A DNA stretch of 64,000 nt from a virus (IMGVR_UViG_3300021085_002857:1-64000), one strand, 5' to 3'; counted from the stretch's first letter, positions 7,070-38,031 are shown. The notes: a model not told the origin generated them from the sequence alone. Program-made: numbers and translations.

Positions 7070-7786
7070 ATGATTAGAATAAATGCTAAAATCTTACCTG
7101 ATTTAGCAAAATTTATTGAAATGCGTTATGGAATAAATGTATTAGAAAAAAAACAAGAATATCCAATTATGATGGACGCTCTATTACGTATGAGTTACTG
7201 GATAGATGAGTGTGTTTTGTCAGAATACTTTAGTGGTGGCGAGGGTTTTTGGTCTAATGAAGAAACCTTTGAAACTCGACGCACAGGAAAACGTTTAATA
7301 GATGAACTAAAAGAAATGGACGAAGCAAAAATCCTAGATATAGGTTGTGGTAATAACGATGTAAAAAAACTAGTTGGAGATAATGTATTTGGTATTGATC
7401 CTTTTAATCCAAATGCAGATGCAGCAGTAAGTGTAGAAAATTTAAAGAAAGATATTGGACAATGGGACGTAGTTTTGTGTTTGGGCAGTATTAACTTTGG
7501 AGATGAAAATACAATAACAGGACAAATACAAAAAGTTGTAAAAATGGTAAAACCAGGAGGTAAAATTTATTGGAGATGTAATCCTGGACTTATGCATAAT
7601 AATGAACATGCCAGATGGGTAGACTTTTTTCCTTGGACTCAAGACTTACTGGATGTATGGGCAGAGAAACTACATTGTGACATTCTAGAACAAGGATGGG
7701 ATCATGATGAAGATATGGACTTGCCTAACGGAAATAGAATTTATAATATTTGGCAAAAAAGAGTAGAATTGAGATCAATAGACTAA
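7070..7786 (+). CDS. class I SAM-dependent methyltransferase
   Basis: KILDIGCG, GIDPF, WDVVLCLGS, KPGG motifs. Confidence 0.8.
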   Translation: MIRINAKILPDLAKFIEMRYGINVLEKKQEYPIMMDALLRMSYWIDECVLSEYFSGGEGFWSNEETFETRRTGKRLIDELKEMDEAKILDIGCGNNDVKKLVGDNVFGIDPFNPNADAAVSVENLKKDIGQWDVVLCLGSINFGDENTITGQIQKVVKMVKPGGKIYWRCNPGLMHNNEHARWVDFFPWTQDLLDVWAEKLHCDILEQGWDHDEDMDLPNGNRIYNIWQKRVELRSID

Positions 7787-8784
7787 TGGATTGGTTGGGC
7801 AATACACATAATATTAAAGTTGAAATTACAAGTTATTGTAATGCGGCATGCCCTGGGTGCCAACGCAATCATATGGGTGGTAAAACTATAGATGAGCTAG
7901 ATTTAAAACATATGGATCTAGATCTATGGAAAAAAATACTTGTTGATACGAAAATTTTAGACTTACAAGAAATATTATTTGATGGTGCGGTGGGCGACAT
8001 GATAATGCATCCCAAGGCATTAGACTTTGTTAAAGAAGCAATGTTAGCACATCCAAAAACAGAGATATTAATTAACTCCAACGGTGGAGCAAGAAATGAA
8101 AAGTTCTGGTCAGAACTTGGATCTATGTTAAGCAAAAGAAATCATAGAATTAACTTTGCAATTGATGGTTTAGAAGATACACATCATCTACATAGAAGAA
8201 ATACAAAATTTGAATTAGTTATACGAAATATAAAAGCCTTTATAAAAGCTGGCGGCAGAGCTAGTTGGACTTTTACAGCATTTGACCATAACCTACACCA
8301 AATAGAAATAGCTAGAAAAAAAGCAATAGAGCTAGGCTTCTCATATTGGGAATTACGTGGCAGTTGTATTCCAGGTGAAGATATGGAAGTTTTAACAGAC
8401 AAAGAAGCGTATGAAATAGGAACAGACAATATTGATGAGATTAGAGAAGAGCTTGTTAAAATTGTTGAAGAGAAATATCCTATTGTAAACGACTTTGGTT
8501 GGATCGACCATAAATGTACTGCATATAGAGAAAGACAGATTCAAATTGATTGGGAAGGTAACCTTTGGCCATGTAGTTATATCTACTCAACTGAAGTTAA
8601 AACTGTACCAGAAAGAATCAGCCCATTTGGGGAAGGCAAACTAGATCATCCTAAAGACAAAATAAACTTAAAAGATAGAAGCTTTAAGGAGATCATGGAA
8701 GATATATTTTATAAAGAAATACTGCCTGATAATATAGACAGAGAATGTCTTGCTGTATGTCAGGAGCGTTGTGGGCTTGGTTAA
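7786..8784 (+). CDS. radical SAM protein with C-terminal twitch (GD-x2-MHP type)
   Basis: CNAACPGC, GDMIMHP, NSNGG, FAIDGL, IDWEGNLWPC...CxxxC; start at ATG 7786. Confidence 0.9.
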   Translation: MDWLGNTHNIKVEITSYCNAACPGCQRNHMGGKTIDELDLKHMDLDLWKKILVDTKILDLQEILFDGAVGDMIMHPKALDFVKEAMLAHPKTEILINSNGGARNEKFWSELGSMLSKRNHRINFAIDGLEDTHHLHRRNTKFELVIRNIKAFIKAGGRASWTFTAFDHNLHQIEIARKKAIELGFSYWELRGSCIPGEDMEVLTDKEAYEIGTDNIDEIREELVKIVEEKYPIVNDFGWIDHKCTAYRERQIQIDWEGNLWPCSYIYSTEVKTVPERISPFGEGKLDHPKDKINLKDRSFKEIMEDIFYKEILPDNIDRECLAVCQERCGLG

Positions 8785-8792
8785 TATGCCAT

Positions 8793-8824
8793 TTCTCCAA
8801 CTAAATACTAGTGAATTTGGAGAA
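8793..8824 (+). promoter_or_regulatory. RBS-sequestering hairpin enclosing a late-promoter-like TAAATA
   Basis: TTCTCCAA 8793-8800 / TTGGAGAA 8817-8824 inverted repeat; TAAATA 8802-8807 in the loop; GGAG is the htrA RBS. Confidence 0.6.
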
Positions 8825-8829
8825 GAACT

Positions 8830-10068
8830 ATGCGTAAAATTACCAAGGTAATACTTGCTTTTTTATTTTTTATTATAACTGTTATGAGCAGTATTGTTGC
8901 AGCAAGTTATATGAGAAATATACAAGAATATGTTAGTGGACACCTTGTCACACTATATGGAAGTAATCCTGATCTTGCAGATAAAATATACGCATGGAAC
9001 AAGACAATTTTTAACGTAGCTGGTTTTGATAAAGAAGCACGTATTAAACATGTAATAAATGAAAACTTTAAAAGTGTTGTATTGGTAAATGTAGCACCAA
9101 AGACAGGCCAGCAAACAATGGGCGGGCGAGGCACAGGTTTTTTCGTGTCTGAAACAGAAACTGATGCAACAATTATTACAAATTATCATGTAATAGAATC
9201 TTATGTTAACAATCCAACAGGATACAATTTACAAGTACAAGCCCCCTTGGAAAGGTGGCCGTATGATGTTGAAATTATAGGATACGATCCTGTAGCAGAT
9301 ATTGCATTATTACGTATTGTAAAACTAGAAGATGAAAAATTTACGCCTTTAGAATTTGCTGATCCAAAAGATATACGAGAAGGCGATCCTGTGGTTGTTA
9401 TTGGACACGGAATGGGATTAGCATGGAGTAGTACTGCTGGACAAGTTGTATATGATGGTCGCAGTGGACGCCCTTATAATCTTATGATACAAGTAGATGC
9501 AGTAATTAACCAAGGCAATAGTGGCGGCCCAGTATTTTCGATGGATGGAAAAGTAATTGGTGTTGCACAAAGTATTTACAGCCCTGGTAGAAGTGTTCCA
9601 GGTTGGGACGGTGTAGGATTAGCAGTACACGCTAGACATGCAGAATTAGTAATGAAATATTTTTATACTGATGCTTATCAAGAAGAGGGATATGTGCCTT
9701 ACAGTGAGTACCCATTTCCTGTTAACAGTTTTACGTTTGAAGATATTAAAGATATACCGAGAGAAGATCGCTACTATGTTTACGCAGACTATACAATTGG
9801 CCAGGAATTAATAGATTATGCAGGTATTGAAGCGGGCATAATGCAAGGCGATATTATCATGGAAATTAATGAGGAACGTGTTTACAGTTCGTTCTCTTTA
9901 CTAAAGGCAGTAATTTATAGCAGACCTGGAGATGTTATGAAAGTAAAAGTGTTGCGTAATAATCCAGCAGAGTTTGAAAAGCATGAAGTAATTGTAGATG
10001 TAATACTTGGCGAAATAGATTATAATACCTTAATGAGCTATGTGAATAGATCACAAGGTGGACGATAA
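8830..10068 (+). CDS. htrA: HtrA/DegP-family serine protease with PDZ domain and N-terminal anchor
   Basis: GTGF, TNYHV (His), DIALL (Asp), GNSGGP (Ser), C-terminal AGIxxGDIIxEIN PDZ pattern. Confidence 0.9.
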   Translation: MRKITKVILAFLFFIITVMSSIVAASYMRNIQEYVSGHLVTLYGSNPDLADKIYAWNKTIFNVAGFDKEARIKHVINENFKSVVLVNVAPKTGQQTMGGRGTGFFVSETETDATIITNYHVIESYVNNPTGYNLQVQAPLERWPYDVEIIGYDPVADIALLRIVKLEDEKFTPLEFADPKDIREGDPVVVIGHGMGLAWSSTAGQVVYDGRSGRPYNLMIQVDAVINQGNSGGPVFSMDGKVIGVAQSIYSPGRSVPGWDGVGLAVHARHAELVMKYFYTDAYQEEGYVPYSEYPFPVNSFTFEDIKDIPREDRYYVYADYTIGQELIDYAGIEAGIMQGDIIMEINEERVYSSFSLLKAVIYSRPGDVMKVKVLRNNPAEFEKHEVIVDVILGEIDYNTLMSYVNRSQGGR

Positions 10069-10082: not shown

Positions 10083-10730
10083 ATGATATACAAACATAGT
10101 TTAGATTTTGCAATCACAACCTATTGCCAGGCCAAATGTAGATCCTGTATGCGAACAAACGAGCGTACTGGTGCAACTGCAAGTTGGCTTAAGCCTGCAC
10201 ATATGACTTACGAAGATTTCGATCTCATGTTGAATAATAGTAGAGACGTAACCCTCCATAAATTAGAGTTTTGTGGAGAATTGGGAGATCCTATGATGCA
10301 TCCTGATATTTCGAGGTTTGTAGACAGAGGGTTCAAGCAAGCAACAAAAATTAATATTAATACTAATGGAGGTTTGAGACAACCCAAATGGTATAAGATA
10401 CATGCACGTGTATATGATGATCTAAATATAGAGTGGGCAATAGACGGTACAGACCATAATACAAACTGGATGTATCGTGAAGGGGTTGACTTTGAACGTG
10501 CATTTACAAATATGCAAACCTGGTTTGAAAATGGCGGTCACGGAAATTGGCATTTTTTAATATTTGAATGGAATGTTGGTCATATAGCATATGCAGCTAA
10601 GATGGCAAAAGAGAACGGCATTCCCATTTGTTTTAAAATTAATCACAGAGAGTTTGGTAAAATTAGAGATGACCAAATAAAAGAAGTCCAGGAAGCATTA
10701 GAAGAGGCTAATCAATATGTCGAAATGTAA
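10083..10730 (+). CDS. radical SAM core domain only (split gene, GD-x2-MHP type)
   Basis: CQAKCRSC, GDPMMHP, NTNGG, AIDG; no C-terminal twitch. Confidence 0.85.
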   Translation: MIYKHSLDFAITTYCQAKCRSCMRTNERTGATASWLKPAHMTYEDFDLMLNNSRDVTLHKLEFCGELGDPMMHPDISRFVDRGFKQATKININTNGGLRQPKWYKIHARVYDDLNIEWAIDGTDHNTNWMYREGVDFERAFTNMQTWFENGGHGNWHFLIFEWNVGHIAYAAKMAKENGIPICFKINHREFGKIRDDQIKEVQEALEEANQYVEM

Positions 10731-11130
10731 AATCATTTGTATGGCGATGAGAAAAGATGAACTAGGCCCTAATAAAGATACAAGGGAATGGGAAGTTGAT
10801 AATCAAGGAAGAGTTTGGCCTTGCTGTTACTATGCAAATAGTGTATTGGGTACTCCAGATATGAAAGAATTTTCAAAAAAAGAAGATCCAAGATTTTGGG
10901 AAATGTGGGCTGCAGAACCAGACTTTAACGATCTCAAAAAATACTCACTGGAAGAGATTATTGAGCATCCCATATATGATGAGTTTATTGCGCCTAGAGG
11001 ATGGGAAAGCGACAATCCACCAGAACTTTGTGTTTTAGAATGTAGTGCAGTTATAGATGAAGTAACTGGCGTTGAACAGTCTGCAGCAAAAATTAATGTG
11101 GAAATGAAAAATGAAACAGTGGAGAAATAG
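10717..11130 (+). CDS. stand-alone twitch/SPASM Fe-S domain protein
   Basis: C...VDNQGRVWPCC...LCVLEC; GAGG RBS upstream. Confidence 0.8.
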   Translation: MSKCKIICMAMRKDELGPNKDTREWEVDNQGRVWPCCYYANSVLGTPDMKEFSKKEDPRFWEMWAAEPDFNDLKKYSLEEIIEHPIYDEFIAPRGWESDNPPELCVLECSAVIDEVTGVEQSAAKINVEMKNETVEK

Positions 11131-11788
11131 CAAAATAGAGTTTGCTATAACAAACCACTGTAACGCAAAATGTCCACTTTGTATACATACACACATGTAT
11201 AATGATGGCACCCTAAATTTACAACATGCAGATTTTAATTCATTTGAAAATGTTGTAAAAAAATATACCAATAAAACACAACTAGTAGCATTATGTGGAG
11301 ACTTTGGAGACCCACTTATGCATCCTCGTATACAAGATTATATTGATTGTACAGAAAGATATAATATACAACTTATAATACACACTAATGGAGGATTAAG
11401 AACTGCAAAGTTTTTTGAGCATAATGCAAAAAATGAAAATCTAGAAATTTGTTTTAGTATAGATGGTACAAGCCAACAAACTAACGAAAAATATAGAGTA
11501 AATGTTGATTATAATAAAGCAATGAATAACATGCTTGCATTTAAAACAAATGGAGGAAATGCATCGTGGGATTTTATAATTTTTGATTATAACATAGATG
11601 ACTTTTATGAGGCTTCACAAATAGCAAAAAACTATGATATAAAGTTTCAACCTATTATTAATAATAGGGAATGGGAACATAAAATAAAAGATAGAAATTT
11701 AATAGAAGAACTTAAACTAGTCCTAAAACAACACAAGCATGGTAACTTTTTACAATCATTAGAAACGTTAAAGGTCCAACAAAGATGA
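11111..11788 (+). CDS. radical SAM core domain only (split gene, GD-x2-MHP type)
   Basis: CNAKCPLC, GDPLMHP, HTNGG, FSIDG. Confidence 0.85.
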   Translation: MKQWRNSKIEFAITNHCNAKCPLCIHTHMYNDGTLNLQHADFNSFENVVKKYTNKTQLVALCGDFGDPLMHPRIQDYIDCTERYNIQLIIHTNGGLRTAKFFEHNAKNENLEICFSIDGTSQQTNEKYRVNVDYNKAMNNMLAFKTNGGNASWDFIIFDYNIDDFYEASQIAKNYDIKFQPIINNREWEHKIKDRNLIEELKLVLKQHKHGNFLQSLETLKVQQR

Positions 11789-12048
11789 TTTTTTGTAAAA
11801 CAAGAACAGTACAAGTAGATTTCAACAATAGATTATGGCCTTGTTGTTGGGTTTTACAACAATGGGAAGATTCGGAATACTTGTCACAGTTGAATAAAAT
11901 TGATCCAGACTGGAATAATTTAGAAAAACATGATATAGAGGTAATTTTCAAACACAATGCCTTTACTACACATTTTAATGATGAACATTGGAATAATGAT
12001 AAATGCGATACAATATGTAAGAAAGAATGTAGTATAAAAGATGAGTAA
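11785..12048 (+). CDS. stand-alone twitch/SPASM Fe-S domain protein
   Basis: FC...VDFNNRLWPCC...ICKKEC; ATGA overlap. Confidence 0.8.
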   Translation: MIFCKTRTVQVDFNNRLWPCCWVLQQWEDSEYLSQLNKIDPDWNNLEKHDIEVIFKHNAFTTHFNDEHWNNDKCDTICKKECSIKDE

Positions 12049-13252
12049 TACCTATTGCACATTTCCATTTACGCACCTAAACCTAAAACAAAAAGGTAAA
12101 GTAAGTGCTTGCTGGCGTTATCCTGGCGCTATAGGAGAATATGGCGAGCAGTCATTACATGGCATATGGAACGATGAAAAAATAAGAGAATTACGTAAAG
12201 CATTTCTTAATAACGAACGCCCAAAGGGATGTAAAAGTTGTTGGGATCTTGAGGATAGTGGAAGTACAAGTACACGTGAAGTTGCAAAAAAAATGGCGTG
12301 GGCTATAACAGAAGACGAAGCAAGAGCTATAACAAGAAAAGATTATACAATTGATCCAATCCACGTAAAATGTATTGAGACAAGATTTGACAATGCATGT
12401 AATTTAATGTGTAGACATTGTAGTCCTGAGTATAGCAGCCAATGGGAAAATGCGGTTAAGAAAAATGCTGAGTTATTAGAAGAAACAAAGCACAATATAG
12501 GTAGCCGTAGTTTTGATACTTTGAGACTTACAGACAATGTTATAAGGGAAATACCTCTTTTTAAAGGCATAACACACTTAATGATAGCTGGCGGCGAACC
12601 GTTATACCATAATAAACATTACAAGTTTTTGGAAAATTTACTACCTAATGCACATAACCTTACACTAGATTATAATACTAATATGACCTTAATAGAATAC
12701 AAAGGCAAAAGTATTATTGATTTATGGAAGAATTTTAAAAAAGTGGATATAAGAGTAAGTGTTGATGGAGATAGACATTGCTACAGTTATGTTAGAGCAA
12801 AAGGTGATATTAATGTTGTAGAAAAAAACCTTAAAACTGTTATGGAAAATTTGGACAACCTTTTTATTACTATGACATGCACAGTGAACAATTACAATAT
12901 TACTAGACTAGATAAAATATTTGAATATTTTTTACAATTGGGAACCACAGTACATACTAGTTTGGTGCAATATCCAGACGAACTCAATGTAAAAGTATTA
13001 CCCAAAGAAATGAAAGCTAAAATTACACAAGACTTTGATGATTATGTTAAGTTAAAAACTAGCCAGAATATAAGTCCACAAAAACTAGAACGTATACATC
13101 GTTATGGGTATAATGTAATTACCTATATGAACAGTGAGGATAGATACGATCAGTATTGGGATAAATTTGTTGCCTATACAAAGGCGCAAGACAAATATCA
13201 TAATACAAATGTACTAGATGTATATCCAGAATTTAAACCATACTGGTACTAG
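12041..13252 (+). CDS. N-terminal-twitch radical SAM protein
   Basis: YCTFPF..SAC..GCKSC then CNLMCRHC, GGEP, YNTN, VSVDG. Confidence 0.9.
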   Translation: MSNTYCTFPFTHLNLKQKGKVSACWRYPGAIGEYGEQSLHGIWNDEKIRELRKAFLNNERPKGCKSCWDLEDSGSTSTREVAKKMAWAITEDEARAITRKDYTIDPIHVKCIETRFDNACNLMCRHCSPEYSSQWENAVKKNAELLEETKHNIGSRSFDTLRLTDNVIREIPLFKGITHLMIAGGEPLYHNKHYKFLENLLPNAHNLTLDYNTNMTLIEYKGKSIIDLWKNFKKVDIRVSVDGDRHCYSYVRAKGDINVVEKNLKTVMENLDNLFITMTCTVNNYNITRLDKIFEYFLQLGTTVHTSLVQYPDELNVKVLPKEMKAKITQDFDDYVKLKTSQNISPQKLERIHRYGYNVITYMNSEDRYDQYWDKFVAYTKAQDKYHNTNVLDVYPEFKPYWY

Positions 13253-13473
13253 TCTGTTAACTTTTTAACAAAGTATTCCCATTCTGTATAAATCTTTTCA
13301 TTACGCCAACGATGCTTTGGCTCTACATTTGTATATATTATTTCATGATAGTAATAGGTAAACCAAAGTAATTTTCCACTGGTGCTTTTAAATGGCAACC
13401 ATGCAAAATGTTTATTAATTTCTGGTTGCTCACTATGTCGCATATCCGTTAAACCCCAATTCCGTCTATTCAT
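13249..13473 (-). CDS. small hypothetical phage protein
   Basis: 74 aa, ATGA overlap, FAWLP motif. Confidence 0.6.
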   Translation of the reverse strand: MNRRNWGLTDMRHSEQPEINKHFAWLPFKSTSGKLLWFTYYYHEIIYTNVEPKHRWRNEKIYTEWEYFVKKLTD

Positions 13474-14636: not shown

Positions 14637-14659
14637 TATAGATCCTTGTAATTATTACC

Positions 14660-28398: not shown

Positions 28399-28400
28399 GG

Positions 28401-29465: not shown

Positions 29466-29487
29466 GAAATACCTCAATTTTATTGTC

Positions 29488-29503
29488 GATAAATATATTT
29501 ATA
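29488..29503. promoter_or_regulatory. back-to-back T4-type late-promoter-like sites between divergent operons
   Basis: 14-bp palindrome ATAAATATATTTAT 29489-29502; TATAAATA on minus (29496-29503), GATAAATA on plus (29488-29495). Confidence 0.6.
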
Positions 29504-29522
29504 CATATTTAATGGAGCAGAA

Positions 29523-32652: not shown

Positions 32653-33764
32653 AATAGTTCTCTTATATCTTGATTAAAGTAATTGTCTATTACTTTTTCT
32701 TTGTTTATAATTTGTTCATCAGTATATGTTTTCTCTGATTCCTGTTCTAATGTATTTAACAATCTTTTTCTAAACGTTTCATATATATCTAAGTTCTTAA
32801 TATATTCTTTAGCCAGTTCTTTATCTTTTGGATCCATATTTGCAATACACATATGAAAAGGACGTCTGGCAATATCCATACTATACCCAGTACCTTTGCT
32901 TTCAATATAGTCTAATAAAGGCTGTAAATTAAAAATGTTAAATCTACTTACAACAAAATGTACACGCATTGTTATGGGGAAACCTGTATCTTTTAAGTTT
33001 AAATAAAAATTAAAAGTGTTATCTATGTCTTTCCATTTATACGGTCCAGGTCTTAGTGTTTCGTTTAATTTACCATACCCATCTATACTTAATACTATTG
33101 TAAGTGCTTTAAGTTTTTTCCACGTTTCTAGTACCTTTTTGCTAGGCAATATAGTTGCATTTGTATGATAGTCAATTTGTACTTTATTAATATTACTACT
33201 CTGGCTTGCTAATTTTTTAATAAACTCGTCGTGTTGTTTTGCAAGTAAAGGTTCCCCTCCTACTAATTTTACACGTTCAATACTAGATAAATCTGTATCA
33301 AACCAGTCTATACTAAAGTCTAGATCCTCTGTAACATCTTCTGTAAGGGGGGTGTTGGTGTGTCTTTTTATAGCAAGCCATTTGCTACTATAGCCTTCAT
33401 TACACATTCTACAAGCAAGATTACAATGATGGCTAAATGCCATCTCTAAAAATTTTAGTTTAGGGGGTTTTGTAAATGTGTTATCTTTTAGATAGGTGTT
33501 ATTAGCATCAGTACGCATACTCTTTCCTGATGTTTGTTCATCCTTAAAGCATCTAGAACAACCAGATGGTTGTTCATTATTTAAAAACTGCTGTCTAAGT
33601 TTACTATAATAATCGCCATGCGACCAGCCTTGTTTTAAGCCTTGTGCAACAGTGGGTAATTCGTTTGGTTTATTACTAAATCTACAACAGGGTTTTAGCT
33701 CTCCTGCTATATCAACAGCGGTATGCACCCAAGGAAATATACATAAATTCTTAGGTGCATCCAT
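32649..33764 (-). CDS. N-terminal-twitch radical SAM protein
   Basis: LCIFPW, KPCC, CSRC, CNLACRMC, GGEP, HTN, LSIDG. Confidence 0.92.
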   Translation of the reverse strand: MDAPKNLCIFPWVHTAVDIAGELKPCCRFSNKPNELPTVAQGLKQGWSHGDYYSKLRQQFLNNEQPSGCSRCFKDEQTSGKSMRTDANNTYLKDNTFTKPPKLKFLEMAFSHHCNLACRMCNEGYSSKWLAIKRHTNTPLTEDVTEDLDFSIDWFDTDLSSIERVKLVGGEPLLAKQHDEFIKKLASQSSNINKVQIDYHTNATILPSKKVLETWKKLKALTIVLSIDGYGKLNETLRPGPYKWKDIDNTFNFYLNLKDTGFPITMRVHFVVSRFNIFNLQPLLDYIESKGTGYSMDIARRPFHMCIANMDPKDKELAKEYIKNLDIYETFRKRLLNTLEQESEKTYTDEQIINKEKVIDNYFNQDIRELL

Positions 33765-33765
33765 A

Positions 33766-34314
33766 TTACATGTCTTTAAATAATTCTAAAAACAGATCAG
33801 CACCCTTGGCCTGATTTGCTTCCCATTCTTCTGCAGCATTTTCATCTGCAAAATCACTTGCATATTTTACAATACGAACTTTTTTATTAAAAACAGCAGC
33901 AACTTTTGCAATAGCATAACCTTCCATGTCAACTATATGACTATTTAATTCTGGTGGTGACATTACAAAATTATCTCCTGTAGATAACACCATATTATTT
34001 TCAGCAATTCGTAATGAAGCTTCAAATCCAGTATTCTCAAAAGGAGTTGTGCCAAGTTCTGCTTGTGGACGAGCATCCATATCTCTCTGTCGTACAATGC
34101 CTACATCATATATTTTACCCGCAAGCTCAGGTACAAGTGTACCTGCTGTACCATAATTAACAATTAATGAACAATCGTCCTGTGCTGCCGCTAGAGTTGC
34201 CATCATAGCTGCATTGACTTTGCCAACACCAGTATACCATACTTTAAATTTTTCAGGATTTAAACTACTGTGATCAGGTAGTTCGCCTTCCAATGCAACT
34301 AAGATATATATCAT
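33766..34314 (-). CDS. mtnN: 5'-methylthioadenosine/S-adenosylhomocysteine nucleosidase-like
   Basis: ALxxE, TGVGKVNAA, NYGTAG, TGDNF, VDMEG, SDFAD motifs. Confidence 0.85.
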   Translation of the reverse strand: MIYILVALEGELPDHSSLNPEKFKVWYTGVGKVNAAMMATLAAAQDDCSLIVNYGTAGTLVPELAGKIYDVGIVRQRDMDARPQAELGTTPFENTGFEASLRIAENNMVLSTGDNFVMSPPELNSHIVDMEGYAIAKVAAVFNKKVRIVKYASDFADENAAEEWEANQAKGADLFLELFKDM

Positions 34315-34730
34315 TATAGATCCTTTAACAATGCTTTTAGTTTTTTCTTTGACTTGCCTTTTACTTTGGCTTTTGAAATATCGTTATCTCCATCGCCCAC
34401 AACCACAATAGCAATCATGCCCATTGTTTTATGTGGTGAACACTGATACAAATATACGCCTGGTGTATCAAATGTCATTTCAACTTCTTTACCCAGTTTT
34501 GATTTACGTGGTGCATCCCATCCATCTGGTCCTGCAATAAATTCTACATTGTGACCTTTTGATGTTGGCAACCATGTGATTGTATCGCCTACATCAATAC
34601 GTGCAATATCTTCACTATATACCATCTTAGCACCATCATCACGCTTGTTTAGCATGTCAATAGTTAGATCTTCTGCATTTGCACTTGTTGCAAATAAAGC
34701 AAGTAAACTTGCGGTAATAATATTTTTCAT
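34314..34730 (-). CDS. pseudoazurin (type-1 blue copper protein) with signal peptide
   Basis: MLNK...GDTITW.PT.KGHNV, YQCSPHKTMGM (His, Cys, His, Met ligands); ANA signal cleavage site. Confidence 0.9.
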   Translation of the reverse strand: MKNIITASLLALFATSANAEDLTIDMLNKRDDGAKMVYSEDIARIDVGDTITWLPTSKGHNVEFIAGPDGWDAPRKSKLGKEVEMTFDTPGVYLYQCSPHKTMGMIAIVVVGDGDNDISKAKVKGKSKKKLKALLKDL

Positions 34731-36158
34731 TTATTCATCCTCTGGTTCATCTAATAAATAGGCCATCTCTGGAAAAGTGGCTCTAAAGTCAGTGCCTCTC
34801 TGGGCATCTAATTTCGTCAAATATTCTCTAAATTCAGGTAGTCTGCGTGTCCAGTCTTCGCTACGTGCAAAGCTAATCATTCCACGCAATCTTTTAATAC
34901 CATAGCTTGCATTTTCCCATTCGTCATATGTTACTTTGCCCTTGTGCCAACTAGGAACACCTAGTTCCCAATTTTCTTTCCACCACTCAATAAATTCTTC
35001 GTATTTGGCTTCACATTTGTCCATAAATTCATCTGGTAGTACTTTAACATTTAAGTGTCCTGGCCAATATACAAAGTGATAGTTGATACCACCTGCACCA
35101 AATGGCCACATATTTGTTTTGTGTAATCCACTCTCTGTTAGTTTCCATTTAAGGAAATCTGGAATATAGTAAATGTTAAGAGCGTTCACTGCACATGCAA
35201 TTGTAACTTCTACATTATTACTTGTTTGTGTATCTAGGCGTTTAAACATTTCCAATTGGTGATCCCATTGACTAGGGTATCTAATATAATCATTCATTGC
35301 ACCAATACTGTCAATACTGTAGTGGAAGCGTACCTTTTTAAAATGTTTCCATTGCTCTAACAATCTATCAGGTAACTCGATACCATTACTATTATATCGT
35401 ACTTCGATTTGATCTGCATATCCCATTTCAATAACTTTATCTAGGATTTCATAATGCTCGTCAATAACAGTTGATTCGCCACCAGCAAAATATAGTTGTT
35501 TAATGAATGGAATTTGTGCATAAAACTGTTCCCAAAACACTGGGTTATCTTTATGCCAGTTGTAACTTGCGCCAAATGTTTTGCCTTTATTTGCCCAAAC
35601 CATAGTTTCTTTAAGGCTCTCGTTAGAGATTTTAGGATATAATCCTTGCCAATCTTTTACCCAACCACTTGAATCGTGAGGAGAACACATTACGCATCCT
35701 AACTGACATTTTGTACCCATACGGATATCAATATATCTTAGTTTACTATTTGTGCTACCATCCTCATATGTTTCTTTTACAAGTTCATCAATATCAATAC
35801 CATCACGCATCCAATAGGCAGTTTCCCATTGGCGTTTACTCATGTGTCCTGCATCTTCTTCTTTATAACACTTTAGACAACTTGCTGGCTTTTGTCCTGC
35901 AAGCATCATTTTCCTTACACCTCGCATATATGTATTATTCCATGCGGTGCTTAAATCTGTAGTATTTAAATTGGCTGGCTTTCCGTCTTCTGTTTTAACG
36001 ATTCCAATTCTGCCGCCATGTTTCTTATCGTTGGTTGCTCCTACACTACTAGCATTTGCTGTACAGCATACTCGCATACTTCCGTCTGGTCTTGTGCTTA
36101 AATGTATCCAAGGCAAAATACAAAAGGTGTCACTGGGTAATTTTTGATCTTCTGACAT
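34731..36158 (-). CDS. N-terminal-twitch radical SAM protein
   Basis: FCILPW, RVCC, CLKC, CQLGCVMC, GGES, YNSN, YSID, DYIRYP. Confidence 0.92.
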   Translation of the reverse strand: MSEDQKLPSDTFCILPWIHLSTRPDGSMRVCCTANASSVGATNDKKHGGRIGIVKTEDGKPANLNTTDLSTAWNNTYMRGVRKMMLAGQKPASCLKCYKEEDAGHMSKRQWETAYWMRDGIDIDELVKETYEDGSTNSKLRYIDIRMGTKCQLGCVMCSPHDSSGWVKDWQGLYPKISNESLKETMVWANKGKTFGASYNWHKDNPVFWEQFYAQIPFIKQLYFAGGESTVIDEHYEILDKVIEMGYADQIEVRYNSNGIELPDRLLEQWKHFKKVRFHYSIDSIGAMNDYIRYPSQWDHQLEMFKRLDTQTSNNVEVTIACAVNALNIYYIPDFLKWKLTESGLHKTNMWPFGAGGINYHFVYWPGHLNVKVLPDEFMDKCEAKYEEFIEWWKENWELGVPSWHKGKVTYDEWENASYGIKRLRGMISFARSEDWTRRLPEFREYLTKLDAQRGTDFRATFPEMAYLLDEPEDE

Positions 36159-36166: not shown

Positions 36167-36856
36167 CTATGTTTGATGTTTGACAAACTCATATGTAGTA
36201 TTAGATTCTCCAGGAATTTTTACTACGGATGTATATACATCTGGTTGTCTATTGTCAACGTATTTAGCCGCTTTTTTATCAAAGCCTGGTAAAGTACTAA
36301 AAGAAGTTTTAGGATCATACTTTTGCCAATCCATATTTTTACGCATTGCAAAGTCTGTTATTTTAGAACTTTCCTGCCATAGTAGTTCCCACATTCTATC
36401 GTAGTTTTTATAGCCTGGTCTGTAATCAGGATAGTGTAGTTCATCAAAACACATAACTTCGCTCCACCAAGCAAAACTTTTTTGTGGTTCCCTATATACT
36501 AGGAATATATAATCACCAGGAAAGTGATTATAGATATAGTCTAGATTAAAATTACGGGCAAAGAAATGACTTTTAATAATACGATATCCATCACCTGAGA
36601 ATACATTGTTGATGTCATCAGTTAATTTATGAGGTTCAACAAAGTTAAAATCTGTCCAATCCTCACCACAGCCCATACCAGGTCCCCAATAACTTCCTCG
36701 ATGACCGTTGTTGTCATCCTCTTTAGTTCTTGGTCTATGATATTGTGTTCTGTTTGGAGTTTCGTCTGAGCGGTCTGCTGGAAGTAGATGTCGCATTACA
36801 ATATCTATGCCGCTCCATTTACTTCCAGGAATTCCGCAAAACCATATGTTGTTCAT
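36167..36856 (-). CDS. sulfotransferase-like P-loop protein
   Basis: N-terminal GIPGSKWS loop, IIKSH, LVYREP resemble PAPS-binding motifs. Confidence 0.5.
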   Translation of the reverse strand: MNNIWFCGIPGSKWSGIDIVMRHLLPADRSDETPNRTQYHRPRTKEDDNNGHRGSYWGPGMGCGEDWTDFNFVEPHKLTDDINNVFSGDGYRIIKSHFFARNFNLDYIYNHFPGDYIFLVYREPQKSFAWWSEVMCFDELHYPDYRPGYKNYDRMWELLWQESSKITDFAMRKNMDWQKYDPKTSFSTLPGFDKKAAKYVDNRQPDVYTSVVKIPGESNTTYEFVKHQT

Positions 36857-36862
36857 ATTTTC

Positions 36863-37150
36863 CTACTTAAAATATTTTCCAAGGTAGTCGCCTACACCTG
36901 ATATTACGTCTTCTTTAATTGATTCAAAGTCAAGTTTGACTGAAACGTCAATCATATCTTCTCGATGCAATCCACCAAGCGCATCATGTTGTCCTCCGTC
37001 TATCATCATTAGATCATCTCTATAGAGTGTCATTTGTGTGTTGTCGGCTAACGTGATAGTGACCTCTATGATATAATCAGCAGGTATGGTATCCATACTT
37101 ACCTGATCAAAGATAAGATCAAAAGAACGGTCCTTGCGCTCAATAGGCAT
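36863..37150 (-). CDS. hypothetical protein
   Basis: 95 aa, AAGGA RBS, TAAATA at 37177-37182 upstream. Confidence 0.7.
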   Translation of the reverse strand: MPIERKDRSFDLIFDQVSMDTIPADYIIEVTITLADNTQMTLYRDDLMMIDGGQHDALGGLHREDMIDVSVKLDFESIKEDVISGVGDYLGKYFK

Positions 37151-37188
37151 TATAAAATTTCCTTGTACTGTGTTACTATTTACTATTT

Positions 37189-38031
37189 TTAGGTACCCGG
37201 TAAGTACCCAGTTAAACTGAGAGAAACTTTTACACTCATGCCAGCATTTGTACTACAATGATATACATGCTCAGGTAACTCATAAACATCACCACTTTTC
37301 CACCTAGGATAAAATGTGTTTGCCATTTGTAACATATGTCCCCAATGCCAATCTGTAATAAACACTAAGTATCTAACGATCTTACCGCCATCACATCTAC
37401 GTGTTTCTGCATTTGGATTCAAATGTTCATTTAGTCTGTACCAGTTTCCCATAAAGTCAAAGTGAAAAGGTAATGTCTGTCCAGGCAAATATGCCAATAA
37501 GCGTGGTAAGCATGTTTCCATATCCATACCCAATTCATCAAACATTTCTTGACCAATCATTTGCTTAATCTGGTTACTTGTGTCTCCATACAGACCCCAA
37601 TTATATTCACAATTGTTAGCCCAATTATATCCACATTTCATTGGCAAGTTTAATGTAAGCTCGTTAACGCCTGCATGATATGGTCTTTTTTCAGTAAATT
37701 TCTTCTGACATGTTGCTTCATTATCCAACATATACTGAATCCATTTATCTTTATTGTCCGATACCTGGCTGAAGTTTCCAATGTAATCTTGTGCAGGGTC
37801 ACGTTCTGTAGTTAAATCAGCACCCGTTTCTTCACAAAATTTAATCCATTCTTTGTCAGGTCTATCACGAAGAAAGTCAAATAGCGTTACTTCTGGGTAT
37901 CTCGCCATCTCACTATTCTTCATGTAATAGTTAATATCTTCTGGAACAGTTCCGTAATCACCCAATACTACTTTAAATTCTGTATTACCTGATTCCGACC
38001 ATTCTTCTCCTTTATTATTTTCTTCTGTCAT
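37189..38031 (-). CDS. cupin / Fe(II)-2OG oxygenase-like protein
   Basis: YLPGQTLPFHFD ... WKSGDVY ... HCSTNAG (HxD...H). Confidence 0.6.
   Translation of the reverse strand: MTEENNKGEEWSESGNTEFKVVLGDYGTVPEDINYYMKNSEMARYPEVTLFDFLRDRPDKEWIKFCEETGADLTTERDPAQDYIGNFSQVSDNKDKWIQYMLDNEATCQKKFTEKRPYHAGVNELTLNLPMKCGYNWANNCEYNWGLYGDTSNQIKQMIGQEMFDELGMDMETCLPRLLAYLPGQTLPFHFDFMGNWYRLNEHLNPNAETRRCDGGKIVRYLVFITDWHWGHMLQMANTFYPRWKSGDVYELPEHVYHCSTNAGMSVKVSLSLTGYLPGT

What the first reader, a model, noticed from the sequence alone, without database searches (positions are those of the whole stretch)
7070..38031. A 31-kb viral radical-SAM biosynthetic island with 16 rSAM enzymes and a full tailoring kit
Seen: 16 ORFs with intact CxxxCxxC motifs lie between 7786 and 36158. 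Interleaved are a methyltransferase, four HxD...H oxygenases, a PLP enzyme, an amidinotransferase, a sulfotransferase-like protein, two large orphan paralogs, HtrA, a nucleosidase and pseudoazurin, mostly translationally coupled. Known: twitch/SPASM rSAMs carry auxiliary Fe-S clusters and act on peptides, proteins (anaerobic sulfatase maturases) or sugars/cyclitols (BtrN). Inference: this is a phage-encoded multi-step pathway of unknown product. With no precursor peptide nearby and late-type promoters, the likely target is virion protein or glycan, or the host surface; DNA hypermodification is the alternative. I know of no characterised pathway with this composition.
Basis: partly seen in the sequence, partly recalled or inferred. 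Interest (0 to 1): 0.92.

Follow-up and report, generated by a model that had tools for sequence, protein, structure and literature searches.

The report
Radical-SAM-rich tailoring island in marine jumbo phage
A large marine phage carries 16 radical-SAM enzyme genes in 31 kb, together with genes that add amino, guanidino, hydroxyl and methyl groups; the set most likely decorates a sugar-based molecule, and nobody has yet identified the chemistry.

Summary
Sixteen ORFs between 7750 and 36158 carry CxxxCxxC and all 16 match the radical SAM profile PF04055. Ten belong to one uncharacterised family, NF033640, whose auxiliary-cluster 'twitch' domain lies at the N-terminus. Five are rSAM/SPASM-like, two of them split into separate core and Cys-rich ORFs. 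One stands alone.

The window is the first 64 kb of a 91-kb IMG/VR phage contig (CheckV 25% complete) with at least 21 rSAM genes. Sixty-six related viral loci show a conserved backbone under purifying selection, interleaved with variable cassettes. Five large relatives carry 10-17 NF033640 genes each, and two of them encode a T4-type capsid protein.

The amidinotransferase is real (HsvA, StrB1 and SxtG relatives). The four HxD...H oxygenases and the PLP enzyme have motif-level support. The sulfotransferase call is not confirmed.

Context points to a sugar or glycan substrate. In Campylobacter phage CP220 and cyanophage S-SCSM2R the same amidinotransferase-rSAM module sits among glycosyltransferases. 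In one bacterium an NF033640 gene shares an open frame with an O-antigen ABC-transporter ATPase.

Multi-rSAM plus amidinotransferase modules in T4-like phages were reported in 2010, 2017 and 2020 without a function. I rate this a new variant of a known but unexplained kind.

The parts
7070..7786 (+). Putative class I SAM methyltransferase; variable cassette
   Evidence: Only sub-threshold Pfam methyltransferase hits, E 0.003-0.01. An orthologue at >=45% identity is found in 1 of 66 loci.
7750..8784 (+). rSAM, family A (N-terminal core plus C-terminal Cys-rich SPASM-like part)
   Evidence: PF04055 38.5 bits; SPASM 19.8 bits, below the 21.5 cut-off. It is 31-34% identical to 26307 and 27355. Cys at 256, 275, 333, 337 and 341.
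8830..10068 (+). HtrA-like serine protease with PDZ domain; variable
   Evidence: Trypsin_2 97.1 bits and PDZ_2 28.4 bits. Orthologues in 3 of 66 loci.
10083..10730 (+). rSAM core only: split form of family A
   Evidence: CxxxCxxC at residue 15. PF04055 22.2 bits, below cut-off. It is 43% identical to the core-only ORF at contig 81717. A short homologue is also present in L068.
10717..11130 (+). Stand-alone SPASM-like Cys-rich protein, overlapping the rSAM core gene by 14 nt
   Evidence: PF13186 24 bits, over cut-off. Its Cys pattern (4, 8, 36/37, 105, 109) mirrors the C-terminal parts of full-length family A.
11111..11788 (+). rSAM core only: second split form
   Evidence: PF04055 37 bits. 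It is 35% identical to 10083.
11785..12048 (+). Stand-alone 87-aa Cys-rich piece; ATGA overlap with 11111
   Evidence: Six Cys. blastp to 10717 gives 1.8e-10. No Pfam hit.
12041..13252 (+). N-terminal-twitch rSAM (NF033640)
   Evidence: 330.1 bits against a cut-off of 170. SPASM profile on residues 6-68 and rSAM on 118-295.
13249..13473 (-). 74-aa aromatic-rich ORF coupled to 13470; candidate partner or substrate
   Evidence: Found by the ORF listing. Conserved after the 13470 orthologue in 6 loci at 36-61% identity, while the rSAM itself is 79-87% identical.
13470..14636 (-). Stand-alone rSAM with four conserved C-terminal Cys; the best-conserved rSAM of the island
   Evidence: PF04055 49.7 bits. 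No NCBIfam family over cut-off. Sixteen of 66 loci have orthologues, up to 87% identical. C313, C335, C356 and C361 are invariant. Omega 0.05-0.12.
14787..16013 (-). N-terminal-twitch rSAM (NF033640); backbone
   Evidence: 386.9 bits. Orthologues in 22 of 66 loci. Median omega 0.09.
16003..17058 (-). N-terminal-twitch rSAM; variable
   Evidence: 206 bits. An orthologue only in L053.
17051..18037 (-). N-terminal-twitch rSAM; variable
   Evidence: 182.2 bits.
18039..18794 (-). Fe(II)/2OG oxygenase of the Asp/Asn beta-hydroxylase family; backbone
   Evidence: PF05118 38.5 bits. H166-x-D168...H214 is conserved in 14 distinct sequences.
18794..20224 (-). Paralogue of 20221; a family seen only in viruses
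   Evidence: 24% identity to 20221, 6e-28. The nearest Atlas clusters are 92-100% viral with no common Pfam family.
20221..21675 (-). Two-domain protein: GT-A-like N-terminal half plus class I methyltransferase-like C-terminal half (predicted)
   Evidence: AF2 pLDDT 91, pTM 0.86. Foldseek against PDB: LH3 3.6e-4, majastridin prob 0.99, B3GNT2, AviRa, NNMT. Foldseek against BFVD: GT25, GT-A and FkbM-type hits. No DxD motif is conserved in the GT-A-like half.
21672..22895 (-). N-terminal-twitch rSAM; backbone
   Evidence: 305.8 bits. Orthologues in 17 of 66 loci.
22892..24142 (-). N-terminal-twitch rSAM; backbone
   Evidence: 220.9 bits. PF04055 27.3 bits, below cut-off. Orthologues in 19 of 66 loci.
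24099..25034 (-). Probable fold-type-I PLP enzyme (aminotransferase-like); backbone
   Evidence: Aminotran_1_2 E 0.0023, below cut-off. D170, S195, K198 and R206 are invariant in 14 sequences. The profile finds nothing below E 0.1 in the PDB. Orthologues in 23 of 66 loci.
25015..26310 (-). N-terminal-twitch rSAM; backbone
   Evidence: 250.9 bits. Orthologues in 25 of 66 loci.
26307..27374 (-). rSAM family A
   Evidence: PF04055 33.3 bits. Thirteen Cys. It is 24% identical to the S-SCSM2R rSAM ORF306 region.
27355..28398 (-). rSAM family A
   Evidence: PF04055 30.5 bits. Fifteen Cys. It is 25% identical to a CP220 rSAM.
28401..29477 (-). Amidinotransferase; backbone
   Evidence: phmmer against the PDB: HsvA 4.3e-26, StrB1 2.9e-23, SxtG 5.2e-19, AGAT 8e-15. 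GGIHC with Cys342 near the C-terminus. Orthologues in 21 of 66 loci. Omega 0.04-0.12.
29496..29503 (-). TATAAATA (T4 late-promoter consensus) about 20 nt upstream of the 28401 start
   Evidence: One of only 3 matches in the window, against 12.5 expected by chance.
29523..30359 (+). Fe(II)/2OG oxygenase, Kdo-hydroxylase-like (a lead only); backbone
   Evidence: Atlas features score 0.96 to clusters in which 49-60% of members carry PF11004 Kdo_hydroxy. No Pfam hit at E <= 5. H142-x-D144...H243 is conserved in 18 sequences.
30326..31402 (+). HxD...H protein, putative oxygenase
   Evidence: No Pfam or PHROG hit. H118-x-D120...H172 is conserved in 9 sequences.
31399..32652 (-). N-terminal-twitch rSAM; backbone
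   Evidence: 294.4 bits. Orthologues in 19 of 66 loci, up to 88-89% identical.
32649..33764 (-). N-terminal-twitch rSAM; variable
   Evidence: 253.3 bits. No orthologue in any of 66 loci.
33766..34314 (-). PNP_UDP_1-family nucleosidase; inferred to remove 5'-deoxyadenosine/MTA
   Evidence: PF01048 53.6 bits. Orthologues in 19 of 66 loci.
34314..34730 (-). Secreted cupredoxin (plastocyanin/azurin family); probably an unrelated cassette
   Evidence: PF00127 60.4 bits. Signal-peptide-like N-terminus. Found in 0 of 66 loci. RNA-library contigs break at its borders.
34731..36158 (-). N-terminal-twitch rSAM; most widespread backbone gene
   Evidence: 417 bits. Fifty related IMG/VR loci. Orthologues at >=45% identity in 44 of 66 loci.
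36167..36856 (-). Conserved 229-aa protein of unknown fold class; not a confirmed sulfotransferase
   Evidence: 145 homologues, none with a Pfam domain. pLDDT 89. Best PDB hit E 0.14; P-loop kinases and TPST2 appear only faintly.
36863..37150 (-). Conserved 95-aa acidic protein, function unknown
   Evidence: No Pfam or PHROG hit. Orthologues in 16 of 66 loci.
37189..38031 (-). HxD...H protein, 2OG-oxygenase-like; variable
   Evidence: 28% identical (1.8e-7) to the '2OG-Fe(II) oxygenase family protein' next to the S-SCSM2R amidinotransferase. An orthologue only in L003.
45803..46906 (-).
   Evidence: 46-49% identical over 98-100% of its length to annotated metK genes. phrog_1569 E 3e-115.

Best explanation
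The island is the main radical-SAM block of a hypervariable tailoring region in a marine T4-related jumbo phage. I think its enzymes act on a carbohydrate-type substrate (an amino sugar, cyclitol or ulosonic acid) and build a heavily edited glycoconjugate during infection. The acceptor is most likely the infected cell's envelope polysaccharide, less likely the virion.

Proposed mechanism:
1. The twitch-type rSAMs cleave SAM to a 5'-deoxyadenosyl radical and abstract hydrogen from sugar C-H bonds. This could give oxidation, epimerisation, deoxygenation or C-C/C-methyl chemistry, with the N-terminal auxiliary cluster as electron conduit, as in BtrN.
2. The keto groups so formed are transaminated by the PLP-like enzyme 24099.
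3. The new amine is guanidinylated by the amidinotransferase 28401.
4. Fe/2OG oxygenases hydroxylate, methyltransferases methylate, and the GT-A-like/MTase two-domain proteins transfer or cap sugars.
5. The phage supplies the cofactor economy itself: MetK makes SAM, the nucleosidase removes inhibitory 5'-deoxyadenosine, and an FNR-like reductase coupled to an rSAM gene (contig 66976-68705) could provide electrons.

Shown here: gene identities, family membership, conservation, purifying selection, presence in RNA libraries, and genomic and fusion context. Inferred: every chemical step, the order of steps, and the acceptor.
For: 1. The amidinotransferase's solved relatives (HsvA, StrB1, SxtG, AGAT) all act on small-molecule amines. 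StrB1 acts on an inosamine phosphate.

2. Residues 4-72 of the NF033640 profile match the BtrN twitch domain at 4e-8. From recall, BtrN is a cyclitol dehydrogenase.

3. tblastn of the amidinotransferase against phages hit 6 records. I opened the annotation of two, and in both isolated phages the gene sits among rSAM genes and glycosyltransferases:
- CP220 gp080-gp092: four rSAM genes, the amidinotransferase, a fifth rSAM, two nucleotide-diphospho-sugar transferases and a PAP2 phosphatase.
- S-SCSM2R ORF301-310: 2OG oxygenases, three GTs, a PLP enzyme, an rSAM, a GT, the amidinotransferase and a GT2.

4. In bacterial genome G107, four tandem NF033640 genes lie in a polysaccharide-export context:
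- One shares an 854-aa open frame with a Wzt/TagH-type O-antigen ABC ATPase (8dku, 1.6e-69).
- The neighbouring ORF is a TylF/MycF/NovP-type sugar O-methyltransferase (1e-84).

5. Among 71 longer proteins containing an NF033640 module, the non-rSAM fusion partners are:
- sulfotransferase plus methyltransferase plus TPR: 3
- methyltransferase plus TPR: 2
- EryCIII-like glycosyltransferase: 2
- class III aminotransferase: 1
- B12-binding: 3
- NRPS: 1
- TPR alone: 1
- PF16484, which I cannot name: 1
None carries a PqqD/RRE-type domain.

6. The 20221 model resembles GT-A glycosyltransferases plus a methyltransferase. 29523 looks Kdo-hydroxylase-like.

7. The support genes are MetK, the nucleosidase and the FNR-like reductase overlapping the rSAM gene at contig 67743.

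8. The backbone is conserved in 16-44 of 66 loci, with omega 0.04-0.37.

9. Passages in the pelagimyophage paper place rSAM cassettes inside a hypervariable host-recognition island rich in LPS glycosyltransferases.
Against: - No ORF of the island hits a glycosyltransferase Pfam family: 0 of 33.
- The GT-A similarity of 20221 is weak (E 3.6e-4 to 1e-2, rmsd 7-16 A). No DxD motif is conserved. 20221 and 18794 are variable cassettes, found in 3 and 1 of 66 loci.
- The Kdo-hydroxylase call rests on language-model features only. Pfam PF11004 was not hit at E <= 5.
- The bacterial context is one genome. The second genome with the family (G178) gave no annotated neighbours.
- No sugar-nucleotide or cyclitol-forming enzyme was found in the island.
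- HtrA, an M42 peptidase and the Asp/Asn-hydroxylase family often act on proteins.
- A conserved small ORF follows the rSAM 13470.
- The rSAM cores score best against peptide-modifying SkfB (7.8e-13).
- One NRPS fusion exists.
Confidence: 0.45

Rival explanations
1. Peptide or protein modification (RiPP-like or virion-protein maturation). The rSAMs would install cross-links, epimerisations or methylations on a ribosomal peptide or on phage or host proteins, in the manner of multi-rSAM proteusin pathways. Oxygenases would act as protein hydroxylases and HtrA or the M42 peptidase as processing proteases.
For: - The rSAM cores score best against SkfB (7.8e-13). Many sub-threshold NCBIfam hits are to RiPP maturases.
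- A conserved, fast-evolving 74-aa aromatic-rich ORF is coupled to the rSAM 13470.
- The contig holds HtrA, an M42 peptidase, two Asp/Asn-hydroxylase-family genes and two B12-rSAM methyltransferases.
- One NRPS fusion was found among 71 longer homologues.
Against: - No PqqD/RRE or leader-peptide family was hit in the 33 ORFs, and none appears among the fusion partners.
- The amidinotransferase's solved relatives use small molecules.
- HtrA is a variable cassette, in 3 of 66 loci.
- In CP220, S-SCSM2R and G107 the neighbours are glycan enzymes, not peptide enzymes.
- From recall, LpxO, a lipid A hydroxylase, belongs to the same Pfam family as the 'protein' hydroxylases.
Confidence: 0.2
2. A free secondary metabolite. 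The island would make a diffusible guanidino-aminocyclitol or aminoglycoside-like compound, or a polyamine derivative, that acts on competitors, on the host's physiology or on rival phages, rather than a surface glycan.
For: - The combination of StrB1/HsvA/SxtG-type amidinotransferase, twitch rSAM and aminotransferase-like enzyme follows aminocyclitol logic.
- KedN5-type B12-rSAM genes lie on the contig.
- The authors of the S-SCSM2R paper read their trio as 'antibiotic synthesis genes' (passages).
Against: - No cyclitol synthase, exporter or resistance gene was identified in the island.
- In the two isolates the module is embedded among LPS-type glycosyltransferases.
- In G107 one NF033640 gene shares an open frame with a polysaccharide exporter ATPase.
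- A lytic phage has little time to profit from a diffusible product (inference).
Confidence: 0.15
3. Nucleic-acid or nucleotide chemistry. The rSAMs and tailoring enzymes would hypermodify phage DNA bases or DNA-linked sugars, or make modified nucleotides, to evade host defence.
For: - The island abuts thyA and DHFR.
- The contig has QueE-like and GTP-cyclohydrolase genes typical of 7-deazaguanine DNA.
- There are weak hits to MoaA and viperin, which use nucleotides.
- From recall, rSAM plus PLP enzymes occur in thymidine hypermodification.
Against: - thyA is paired with DHFR, as expected for an ordinary thymidylate cycle (inference).
- The deazaguanine genes lie 11-19 kb away, outside the island.
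- No DNA transferase, kinase or glycosylase family was hit in the island.
- The viperin and MoaA scores are 20-48 bits against cut-offs of 180-284.
- CP220 has the related module, and the one passage I read reports its DNA as carrying 7-amido-7-deazaguanine. I did not read the primary nucleoside study.
Confidence: 0.1

Closest known systems
Radical-SAM plus amidinotransferase module of Campylobacter phages CP220/CPt10 (Timms et al. 2010, PMC2853527; passages read)
   Same: - T4-related phages with 11-12 rSAM genes.
- A swappable cluster of 10-12 CDSs holds five rSAM genes and a putative amidinotransferase.
- No function is known.
- The CP220 amidinotransferase is 25% identical to 28401 over 95% of its length.
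- Its rSAMs resemble family A at 17-32% identity.
   Different: - The NF033640 query 34731 found no CP220 record at E <= 1e-5. In the CP220 locus the NF033640 queries gave only two weak partial matches (14787 and 25015, E about 5e-5 and 1e-5).
- The window has 16 rSAM genes in 31 kb, and the 91-kb fragment has at least 21.
- CP220 has recognisable GT-A genes next to the module. The window has none by Pfam.
Hypervariable 'host recognition cluster' of pelagimyophages and cyanomyophages, and the T4-like TARA viral genome with 12 rSAM genes (PMC7029224, PMC5332604; passages and one section read)
   Same: - Marine T4-like phages.
- Variable islands with LPS or glycosyltransferase genes, Asp/Asn hydroxylases, transport genes and rSAM cassettes.
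- The island differs between close relatives by the gain and loss of cassettes.
   Different: - Those genomes are about 140-190 kb. This lineage's fragments reach 243 kb at about 55% estimated completeness.
- I did not show that this island lies between the structural anchors that define the HRC.
- The supplementary tables listing their rSAM genes could not be seen.
Cyanophage S-SCSM2R cluster: PLP enzyme, rSAM, amidinotransferase and GTs (PMC12801897; passages read; record PQ898602.1)
   Same: - The same trio plus 2OG oxygenases in one operon-like block.
- 28401, 26307 and 37189 each have a homologue there at 24-28% identity.
   Different: - It has a single rSAM rather than 16.
- It has explicit GT2 and GT25 genes.
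- It has no NF033640 member in the stretch examined.
Aminocyclitol logic of butirosin/streptomycin biosynthesis: BtrN twitch rSAM dehydrogenase, aminotransferase, StrB1 amidinotransferase (pathway knowledge recalled)
   Same: - The twitch auxiliary-cluster domain is homologous to BtrN's.
- The amidinotransferase is homologous to StrB1.
- An aminotransferase-like enzyme sits between them in the operon.
   Different: - The twitch domain is N-terminal to the barrel, whereas SPASM and twitch domains are described as C-terminal (PMC9477430 passage).
- No cyclitol synthase or kinase was found.
- No NCBIfam equivalog for BtrN-type or other named enzymes is reached.
NCBIfam NF033640 'twitch domain-containing radical SAM protein'
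   Same: Ten island proteins score 182-417 bits against a cut-off of 170, mostly over nearly the full model. The two shortest (16003, 17051) cover about positions 4-337 of 398.
   Different: - The family has a name but no function. Searches for the name and for 'twitch domain' with phage found no paper on it.
- It is rare in the bacteria sampled: 2 of 401 and 1 of 133 genomes.
- It is expanded to 10-17 copies per phage record here.

Membership tests
Radical SAM superfamily (PF04055) | CxxxCxxC cluster motif near the start of the core | tested here: met
   All 16 candidate ORFs carry it.
Radical SAM superfamily (PF04055) | Profile match at or above the Pfam gathering score | tested here: met
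   Fourteen of 16 are above 29.5 bits. 10083 (22.2) and 22892 (27.3) are below, but 22892 scores 221 bits on NF033640 and 10083 is 43% identical to a paralogue.
Radical SAM superfamily (PF04055) | GGE SAM-binding motif | tested here: met
   G202, G203 and E204 are invariant in the alignment of the 11 NF033640 paralogues. The motif's role is recalled. It was not checked in family A.
NF033640 N-terminal-twitch rSAM | Whole-protein score over the curated cut-off (170 bits) | tested here: met
   Ten of 10 in the island score 182-417 bits. An eleventh, at contig 83893, scores 203 bits.
NF033640 N-terminal-twitch rSAM | Cys-rich auxiliary-cluster domain N-terminal to the barrel | tested here: met
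   C12, C82 and C85 are invariant and C30 is at least 90% conserved. The Pfam SPASM profile hits the N-terminal part of 7 of the 10. The profile's residues 4-72 match the BtrN twitch at 4e-8.
NF033640 N-terminal-twitch rSAM | The auxiliary [4Fe-4S] cluster is actually bound | not testable with these tools
   Needs metal analysis, EPR or a structure.
C-terminal SPASM/twitch rSAM (family A: 7750, 26307, 27355 and the split pairs) | SPASM profile (PF13186) over cut-off in the C-terminal part | tested here: inconclusive
   7750 scores 19.8 bits, below 21.5. 26307 and 27355 have no hit. The stand-alone 10717 scores 24 bits. A shared Cys pattern is present in all.
Amidinotransferase (GATM/StrB1 type) | Full-length homology to solved members | tested here: met
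   HsvA 4.3e-26 over residues 22-357, StrB1 2.9e-23, SxtG 5.2e-19. Pfam ADI is only E 0.018.
Amidinotransferase (GATM/StrB1 type) | Catalytic Cys near the C-terminus | tested here: inconclusive
   GGIHC with Cys342 of 358 residues is present. That this is the catalytic motif is recalled and was not aligned residue by residue.
RiPP biosynthetic cluster | Precursor peptide gene beside the maturase | tested here: inconclusive
   The 74-aa ORF coupled to 13470 is conserved in 6 loci. Nothing shows it is a substrate.
RiPP biosynthetic cluster | RiPP recognition element (PqqD-like) in or beside the rSAM | tested here: not met
   No such Pfam hit in the 33 ORFs or among the 71 fused homologues.
Aminoglycoside/aminocyclitol pathway | Cyclitol-forming enzyme (inosose or inositol-phosphate synthase) | tested here: not met
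   No Pfam hit of that kind in the 33 ORFs. Only 29 ORFs elsewhere on the contig went through a Pfam, PHROG or NCBIfam scan, each through one library or two.
Glycan biosynthesis locus | Recognisable glycosyltransferase | tested here: inconclusive
   No Pfam GT in the island. The 20221 model has a GT-A-like half at weak E-values and no conserved DxD. A weak GT1 hit lies at 57340-58404, outside the island.
Phage DNA hypermodification system | DNA-acting transferase, kinase or glycosylase beside the tailoring genes | tested here: not met
   None among the island ORFs. The deazaguanine genes lie elsewhere.
Sulfotransferase (claim for 36167) | Fold or profile match to sulfotransferases | tested here: not met
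   No Pfam hit. phmmer against the PDB finds nothing. The confident model's best PDB hit is E 0.14, and TPST2 is at rank 8 with E 0.46.

The most novel reading that the evidence does not exclude
These jumbo phages carry a radical-SAM 'glycan editing' system. A dozen or more paralogous N-terminal-twitch rSAMs would each perform a different C-H functionalisation on a sugar polymer or its precursors. Together with amination, guanidinylation, hydroxylation and methylation, this would yield a phage-specified surface coat not yet described in chemistry. The cassette-wise variability would reflect an arms race over adsorption and superinfection. It would be the carbohydrate counterpart of the multi-rSAM peptide editing seen in proteusins, run by a virus that brings its own SAM synthetase and by-product clearance.
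Probability: 0.15. Interest if true: 0.9.

Novelty: new variant of a known kind. Interest (0 to 1): 0.68.

Why it matters
- Radical SAM enzymes do chemically hard reactions, and most families have no known function.
- This is a viral lineage, common in marine metagenomes, that invests a large share of its genome in them. The 91-kb fragment has at least 21 rSAM genes. Relatives have 10-17 copies of one uncharacterised family per partial genome.
- The same phage carries the genes to feed and detoxify that chemistry.
- The related CP220 module has stood unexplained since 2010.
- The conserved trio of twitch rSAM, PLP-like enzyme and amidinotransferase gives a small, testable entry point.
- If the product is a modified envelope glycan, it would be a new way for phages to rewrite host surfaces in the ocean.
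- If it is a peptide or a nucleic-acid modification, the N-terminal-twitch family would still be new enzymology.

Tried and rejected
- **Nucleotide similarity.** Megablast of 7070-32000 and 39001-64000 against 50,697 phage records found nothing.
- **NF033640 in plasmids.** tblastn of 14787 against plasmids found nothing.
- **Bacterial genome scans.** An alignment of the 11 paralogues was too divergent to scan with. A scan with 14787 alone found no relative. The last scan, with the OpuAC-like protein, gave one 32% hit in a Rhizobiaceae MAG. That says nothing about the host, and I used it only to obtain a bacterial handle.
- **Host.** Not identified. No psbA was found in five large relatives, which are fragments.
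- **Orphans.** The Atlas search of 18794 gave only viral orphan clusters. PDB sequence searches of 24099, 29523, 36167 and 14787 as single proteins gave nothing significant.
- **PLP profile.** The profile of 24099 orthologues found nothing below E 0.1 in the PDB.
- **Neighbours in G178.** Two ORFs beside its NF033640 gene could not be annotated through the plasmid collection.
- **Reductants and Fe-S assembly.** Flavodoxin was not found in 5 records. An A-type Fe-S carrier was found in 2 of 5 records, but not in this contig.
- **Sigma-70 and terminator scans.** These were at or below the shuffle expectation (76 against 93.8; 9 against 7.6). I draw nothing from them.
- **Transcription.** Twenty of 24 listed runs hold part of 26001-36000, and 15 are labelled RNA. 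I laid 4 of them, from 4 studies, on 16001-36000. Their contigs cover 30, 30, 29 and 30 of 30 bins, with uneven depth. These are contigs from RNA libraries that may contain DNA, so transcription is suggested but not shown.
- **dN/dS.** dS is saturated (1.1-2.8 for all but one gene), so the omegas are rough. Thirteen of 33 genes had no orthologue at >=60% identity and were not tested.
- **Ortholog counts.** The counts 'of 66 loci' are lower bounds. Each locus spans only about 10 kb on either side of its anchor gene, and 8 of the 16 loci lie on contigs already sampled.
- **Rejected: the cupredoxin as rSAM reductant.** Its redox potential is far too high (recalled), it has a signal-peptide-like N-terminus, and it is absent from relatives.
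- **Rejected: thyA as a hydroxymethylase.** It is paired with DHFR.

Full report
**What is there.** The window is the first 64 kb of a single 91,045-bp IMG/VR virus record. A motif scan of the 33 ORFs between 7070 and 38733 finds CxxxCxxC in exactly 16. All 16 hit Pfam Radical_SAM. Fourteen are above the gathering score, and 10083 and 22892 are just below it. The motif alone is not proof. Over the whole contig 25 ORFs of at least 60 aa carry it, and four of those are short ORFs lying over longer genes on the other strand. The genes are tightly packed: of 30 same-strand junctions, 19 overlap and 6 have gaps of at most 10 nt.

**Three kinds of rSAM.** All-against-all blastp and NCBIfam split the 16 into groups.
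- Ten (12041, 14787, 16003, 17051, 21672, 22892, 25015, 31399, 32649, 34731) belong to NF033640, 'twitch domain-containing radical SAM protein'. They score 182-417 bits against a cut-off of 170. Their Cys-rich auxiliary domain lies before the barrel: C12, C82 and C85 are invariant, C30 is at least 90% conserved, and the rSAM cysteines follow at 130, 134 and 137.
- A profile of these paralogues matches the twitch domain of BtrN with its first 70 residues (4e-8). Its core matches SkfB, MoaA, SuiB, viperin and BlsE. A passage in PMC9477430 describes SPASM and twitch domains as C-terminal to the barrel, so this family is permuted relative to the usual arrangement.
- Five are 'family A', with an N-terminal core and a C-terminal Cys-rich part: 7750, 26307, 27355, and two split versions. 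In each split version a core-only ORF (10083, 11111) is followed, with overlap, by a small Cys-rich ORF (10717, 11785). The small ORFs carry the same Cys pattern as the C-termini of the full-length proteins.
- One (13470) stands alone. It has four invariant C-terminal Cys.
- The paralogues are old. Identities are 20.5-31.7% within NF033640 and 25.5-43.1% within family A, while orthologues in other phages reach 65-89%.

**The other genes.**
- Confirmed by Pfam: an HtrA-like protease, an Asp/Asn-hydroxylase-family oxygenase, a PNP_UDP_1 nucleosidase and a cupredoxin.
- 28401 is a true amidinotransferase. Its solved relatives are HsvA 4e-26, StrB1 3e-23, SxtG 5e-19 and AGAT.
- The four HxD...H proteins keep their triads in orthologues. 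29523 resembles Kdo hydroxylases by Atlas features only. 37189 is 28% identical to the 2OG oxygenase beside the amidinotransferase of cyanophage S-SCSM2R.
- 24099 has a weak aminotransferase hit and invariant D170, S195-x-x-K198 and R206. This fits the pattern of fold-type-I PLP enzymes as I recall it.
- 36167 gave a confident model with no significant fold match, so 'sulfotransferase-like' is not confirmed.
- 20221, and by paralogy 18794, gave a confident two-domain model. Its halves resemble GT-A glycosyltransferases and class I methyltransferases at modest E-values. No DxD motif is conserved.
It is conserved after the 13470 orthologue in six loci at 36-61% identity.

**It is a phage, and a big one.**
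- The contig has thyA, DHFR, an exonuclease, CobS/CobT-like genes, QueE-like and GTP-cyclohydrolase genes, a PAAR-lysin fusion and 12 tRNAs.
- CheckV rates it 25% complete.
- Scans of IMG/VR with 34731 and 14787 returned 50 and 16 related loci. Eight of the second set lie on contigs already found by the first.
- Five large relatives (110-243 kb, 32-56% complete) carry 17, 13, 13, 10 and 13 NF033640 genes over the cut-off.
- PF04055 was searched in four of those relatives and in the window's own contig. It gave 23, 20, 18 and 18 matches in the relatives and 20 in this contig.
- Two of the five relatives encode a Gp23-type capsid protein.
- The CobS-like ATPase is closest to jumbo phages: PA5oct 45%, Phosso 42%, Atu_ph07 34%.
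- Beyond the window the contig holds five more rSAM genes, two of them of the B12 type, plus an FNR-like reductase overlapping one of them.

**Backbone and cassettes.** tblastn of the island proteins against the 66 loci shows two classes of gene.
- Backbone genes: 13470, 14787, 18039, 21672, 22892, 24099, 25015, 28401, 29523, 31399, 33766, 34731, 36167, 36863 and 38050. Each is found in 16-44 loci.
- Rare or unique genes: 7070, 7750, 8830, 10083-12041, 16003, 17051, 18794, 20221, 27355, 30326, 32649, 34314 and 37189.
- Gene maps show cassette gain and loss, and different flanks in different relatives.
- Related loci longer than 20 kb hold 3-12 rSAM ORFs, median 7 (n = 37).
- Pairwise NG86 gives omega 0.04-0.37 for the 20 genes with orthologues. 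dS is saturated, so these values are rough.
- Contigs from four marine RNA libraries of four studies cover 29-30 of 30 bins of 16001-36000 with uneven depth. This suggests transcription but does not prove it.

**What it most likely does.** Several lines point to sugars rather than peptides or DNA.
1. The amidinotransferase's solved relatives act on small amines, one of them an inosamine phosphate.
2. The twitch domain is BtrN-like.
3. In the two isolated phages whose annotation I opened, out of six phage records with this amidinotransferase, it sits among rSAM genes and glycosyltransferases. These are CP220 gp080-092 and S-SCSM2R ORF301-310.
4. NF033640 is rare in the bacteria sampled: 2 of 401 Pseudomonadota genomes and 1 of 133 in one class. 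In genome G107, four tandem copies lie beside a TylF/MycF-type sugar O-methyltransferase (1e-84). One copy shares an 854-aa open frame with a Wzt/TagH-type O-antigen ABC ATPase (1.6e-69).
5. Most of the 71 longer homologues are double rSAMs. The other fusion partners are sulfotransferase-methyltransferase-TPR (3), methyltransferase-TPR (2), EryCIII-like glycosyltransferase (2), class III aminotransferase (1), B12-binding (3), NRPS (1), TPR alone (1) and PF16484, which I cannot name (1). None has a RiPP recognition domain.
6. The phage carries MetK, a nucleosidase in the backbone and an rSAM-coupled reductase. This fits heavy SAM turnover.

From these I infer a sequence of steps: rSAM oxidation or epimerisation of a sugar C-H, then transamination, then guanidinylation, with hydroxylation, methylation and glycosyl transfer around it. 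The product would be an edited glycoconjugate. I put this at 0.45.

**What argues against this reading.**
- The island has no Pfam glycosyltransferase.
- The GT-A and Kdo-hydroxylase calls are weak.
- The bacterial context rests on one genome.
- Proteases, protein-type hydroxylase families and the small coupled ORF keep the peptide reading alive (0.2).
- A free guanidino metabolite (0.15) and nucleic-acid chemistry (0.1) remain possible.

**Known or new.**
- Timms et al. 2010 reported 11-12 rSAM genes in CP220 and CPt10, with an interchangeable cluster of five rSAM genes plus an amidinotransferase (passages).
- Nishimura et al. 2017 noted a 183-kb T4-like marine genome with 12 rSAM genes (section read).
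- Zaragoza-Solas et al. 2020 noted rSAM cassettes in the hypervariable island of pelagimyophages (passages).
- The S-SCSM2R paper called its trio 'antibiotic synthesis genes' (passages).
- None of these assigns a function.
- My searches for the NF033640 family name, and for twitch domains in phages, found no study of it.

This lineage differs in scale and in being dominated by the permuted-twitch family. I rate it a new variant of a known but unexplained kind, with interest 0.68.

Noticed in passing
window 45803-46906 (-): A phage-encoded S-adenosylmethionine synthetase (MetK), 46-49% identical to annotated metK genes. It is likely the SAM supply for the rSAM arsenal.
   Followed up: partly
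window 49178-50071 (-) and 56617-57318 (-): A QueE-like rSAM (phrog_2076, 3.8e-52) and a GTP cyclohydrolase (phrog_2197). These suggest a separate 7-deazaguanine DNA modification pathway outside the island.
   Followed up: no
window 34314-34730 (-): A cupredoxin with a signal-peptide-like N-terminus, absent from all 66 related loci. RNA-library contigs show a depth peak here and loose ends at 34326-34405, as if the gene were a cassette shared with other abundant genomes.
   Followed up: partly
L001 2976-3758 (-) and 3743-4705 (-) (contig 66976-68705): An FNR-like reductase (FAD_binding_6 plus NAD_binding_1) overlaps a family A rSAM gene by 16 nt. It is a candidate dedicated electron supply.
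   Followed up: no
L001 7864-9737 (-) (contig 71864-73737): A phage-borne glycine-betaine-type ABC transporter pair: an OpuAC binding protein (132 bits) and a permease. The best bacterial hit is only 32% identical.
   Followed up: partly
L001 11610-13346 (-) and 15598-17484 (-): Two paralogous B12-binding rSAM proteins (34% identical). They score 169-199 bits on the KedN5 C-methyltransferase family, far below its cut-off of 700.
   Followed up: no
window 10083-12048 (+): Two successive rSAM genes are split into a core ORF and an overlapping small Cys-rich ORF, directly upstream of an N-terminal-twitch rSAM. This arrangement could be how the permuted (twitch-first) architecture arose by gene fusion.
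   Followed up: partly
L079 8579-11143 (-) (bacterial genome G107, contig 19): An 854-aa open frame joins a Wzt/TagH-type polysaccharide-export ATPase to an NF033640 rSAM. It lies in a tandem array of four such rSAM genes next to a TylF-type sugar O-methyltransferase.
   Followed up: partly
whole window: The T4 late-promoter consensus TATAAATA is depleted: 3 matches against 12.5 expected. Two of the three lie just upstream of gene starts, at 29496 and 42925.
   Followed up: no
L002 1590-8701 and 9647-10558 (-): A cluster of 12 tRNA genes and a PAAR-lysin fusion protein lie near the end of the contig.
   Followed up: no
window 14637-14786: The only long non-coding gap in the island holds a sigma-70-like TTGACT-16-TACTAT upstream of 13470. 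The best-conserved rSAM may therefore be transcribed separately from the rest.
   Followed up: no
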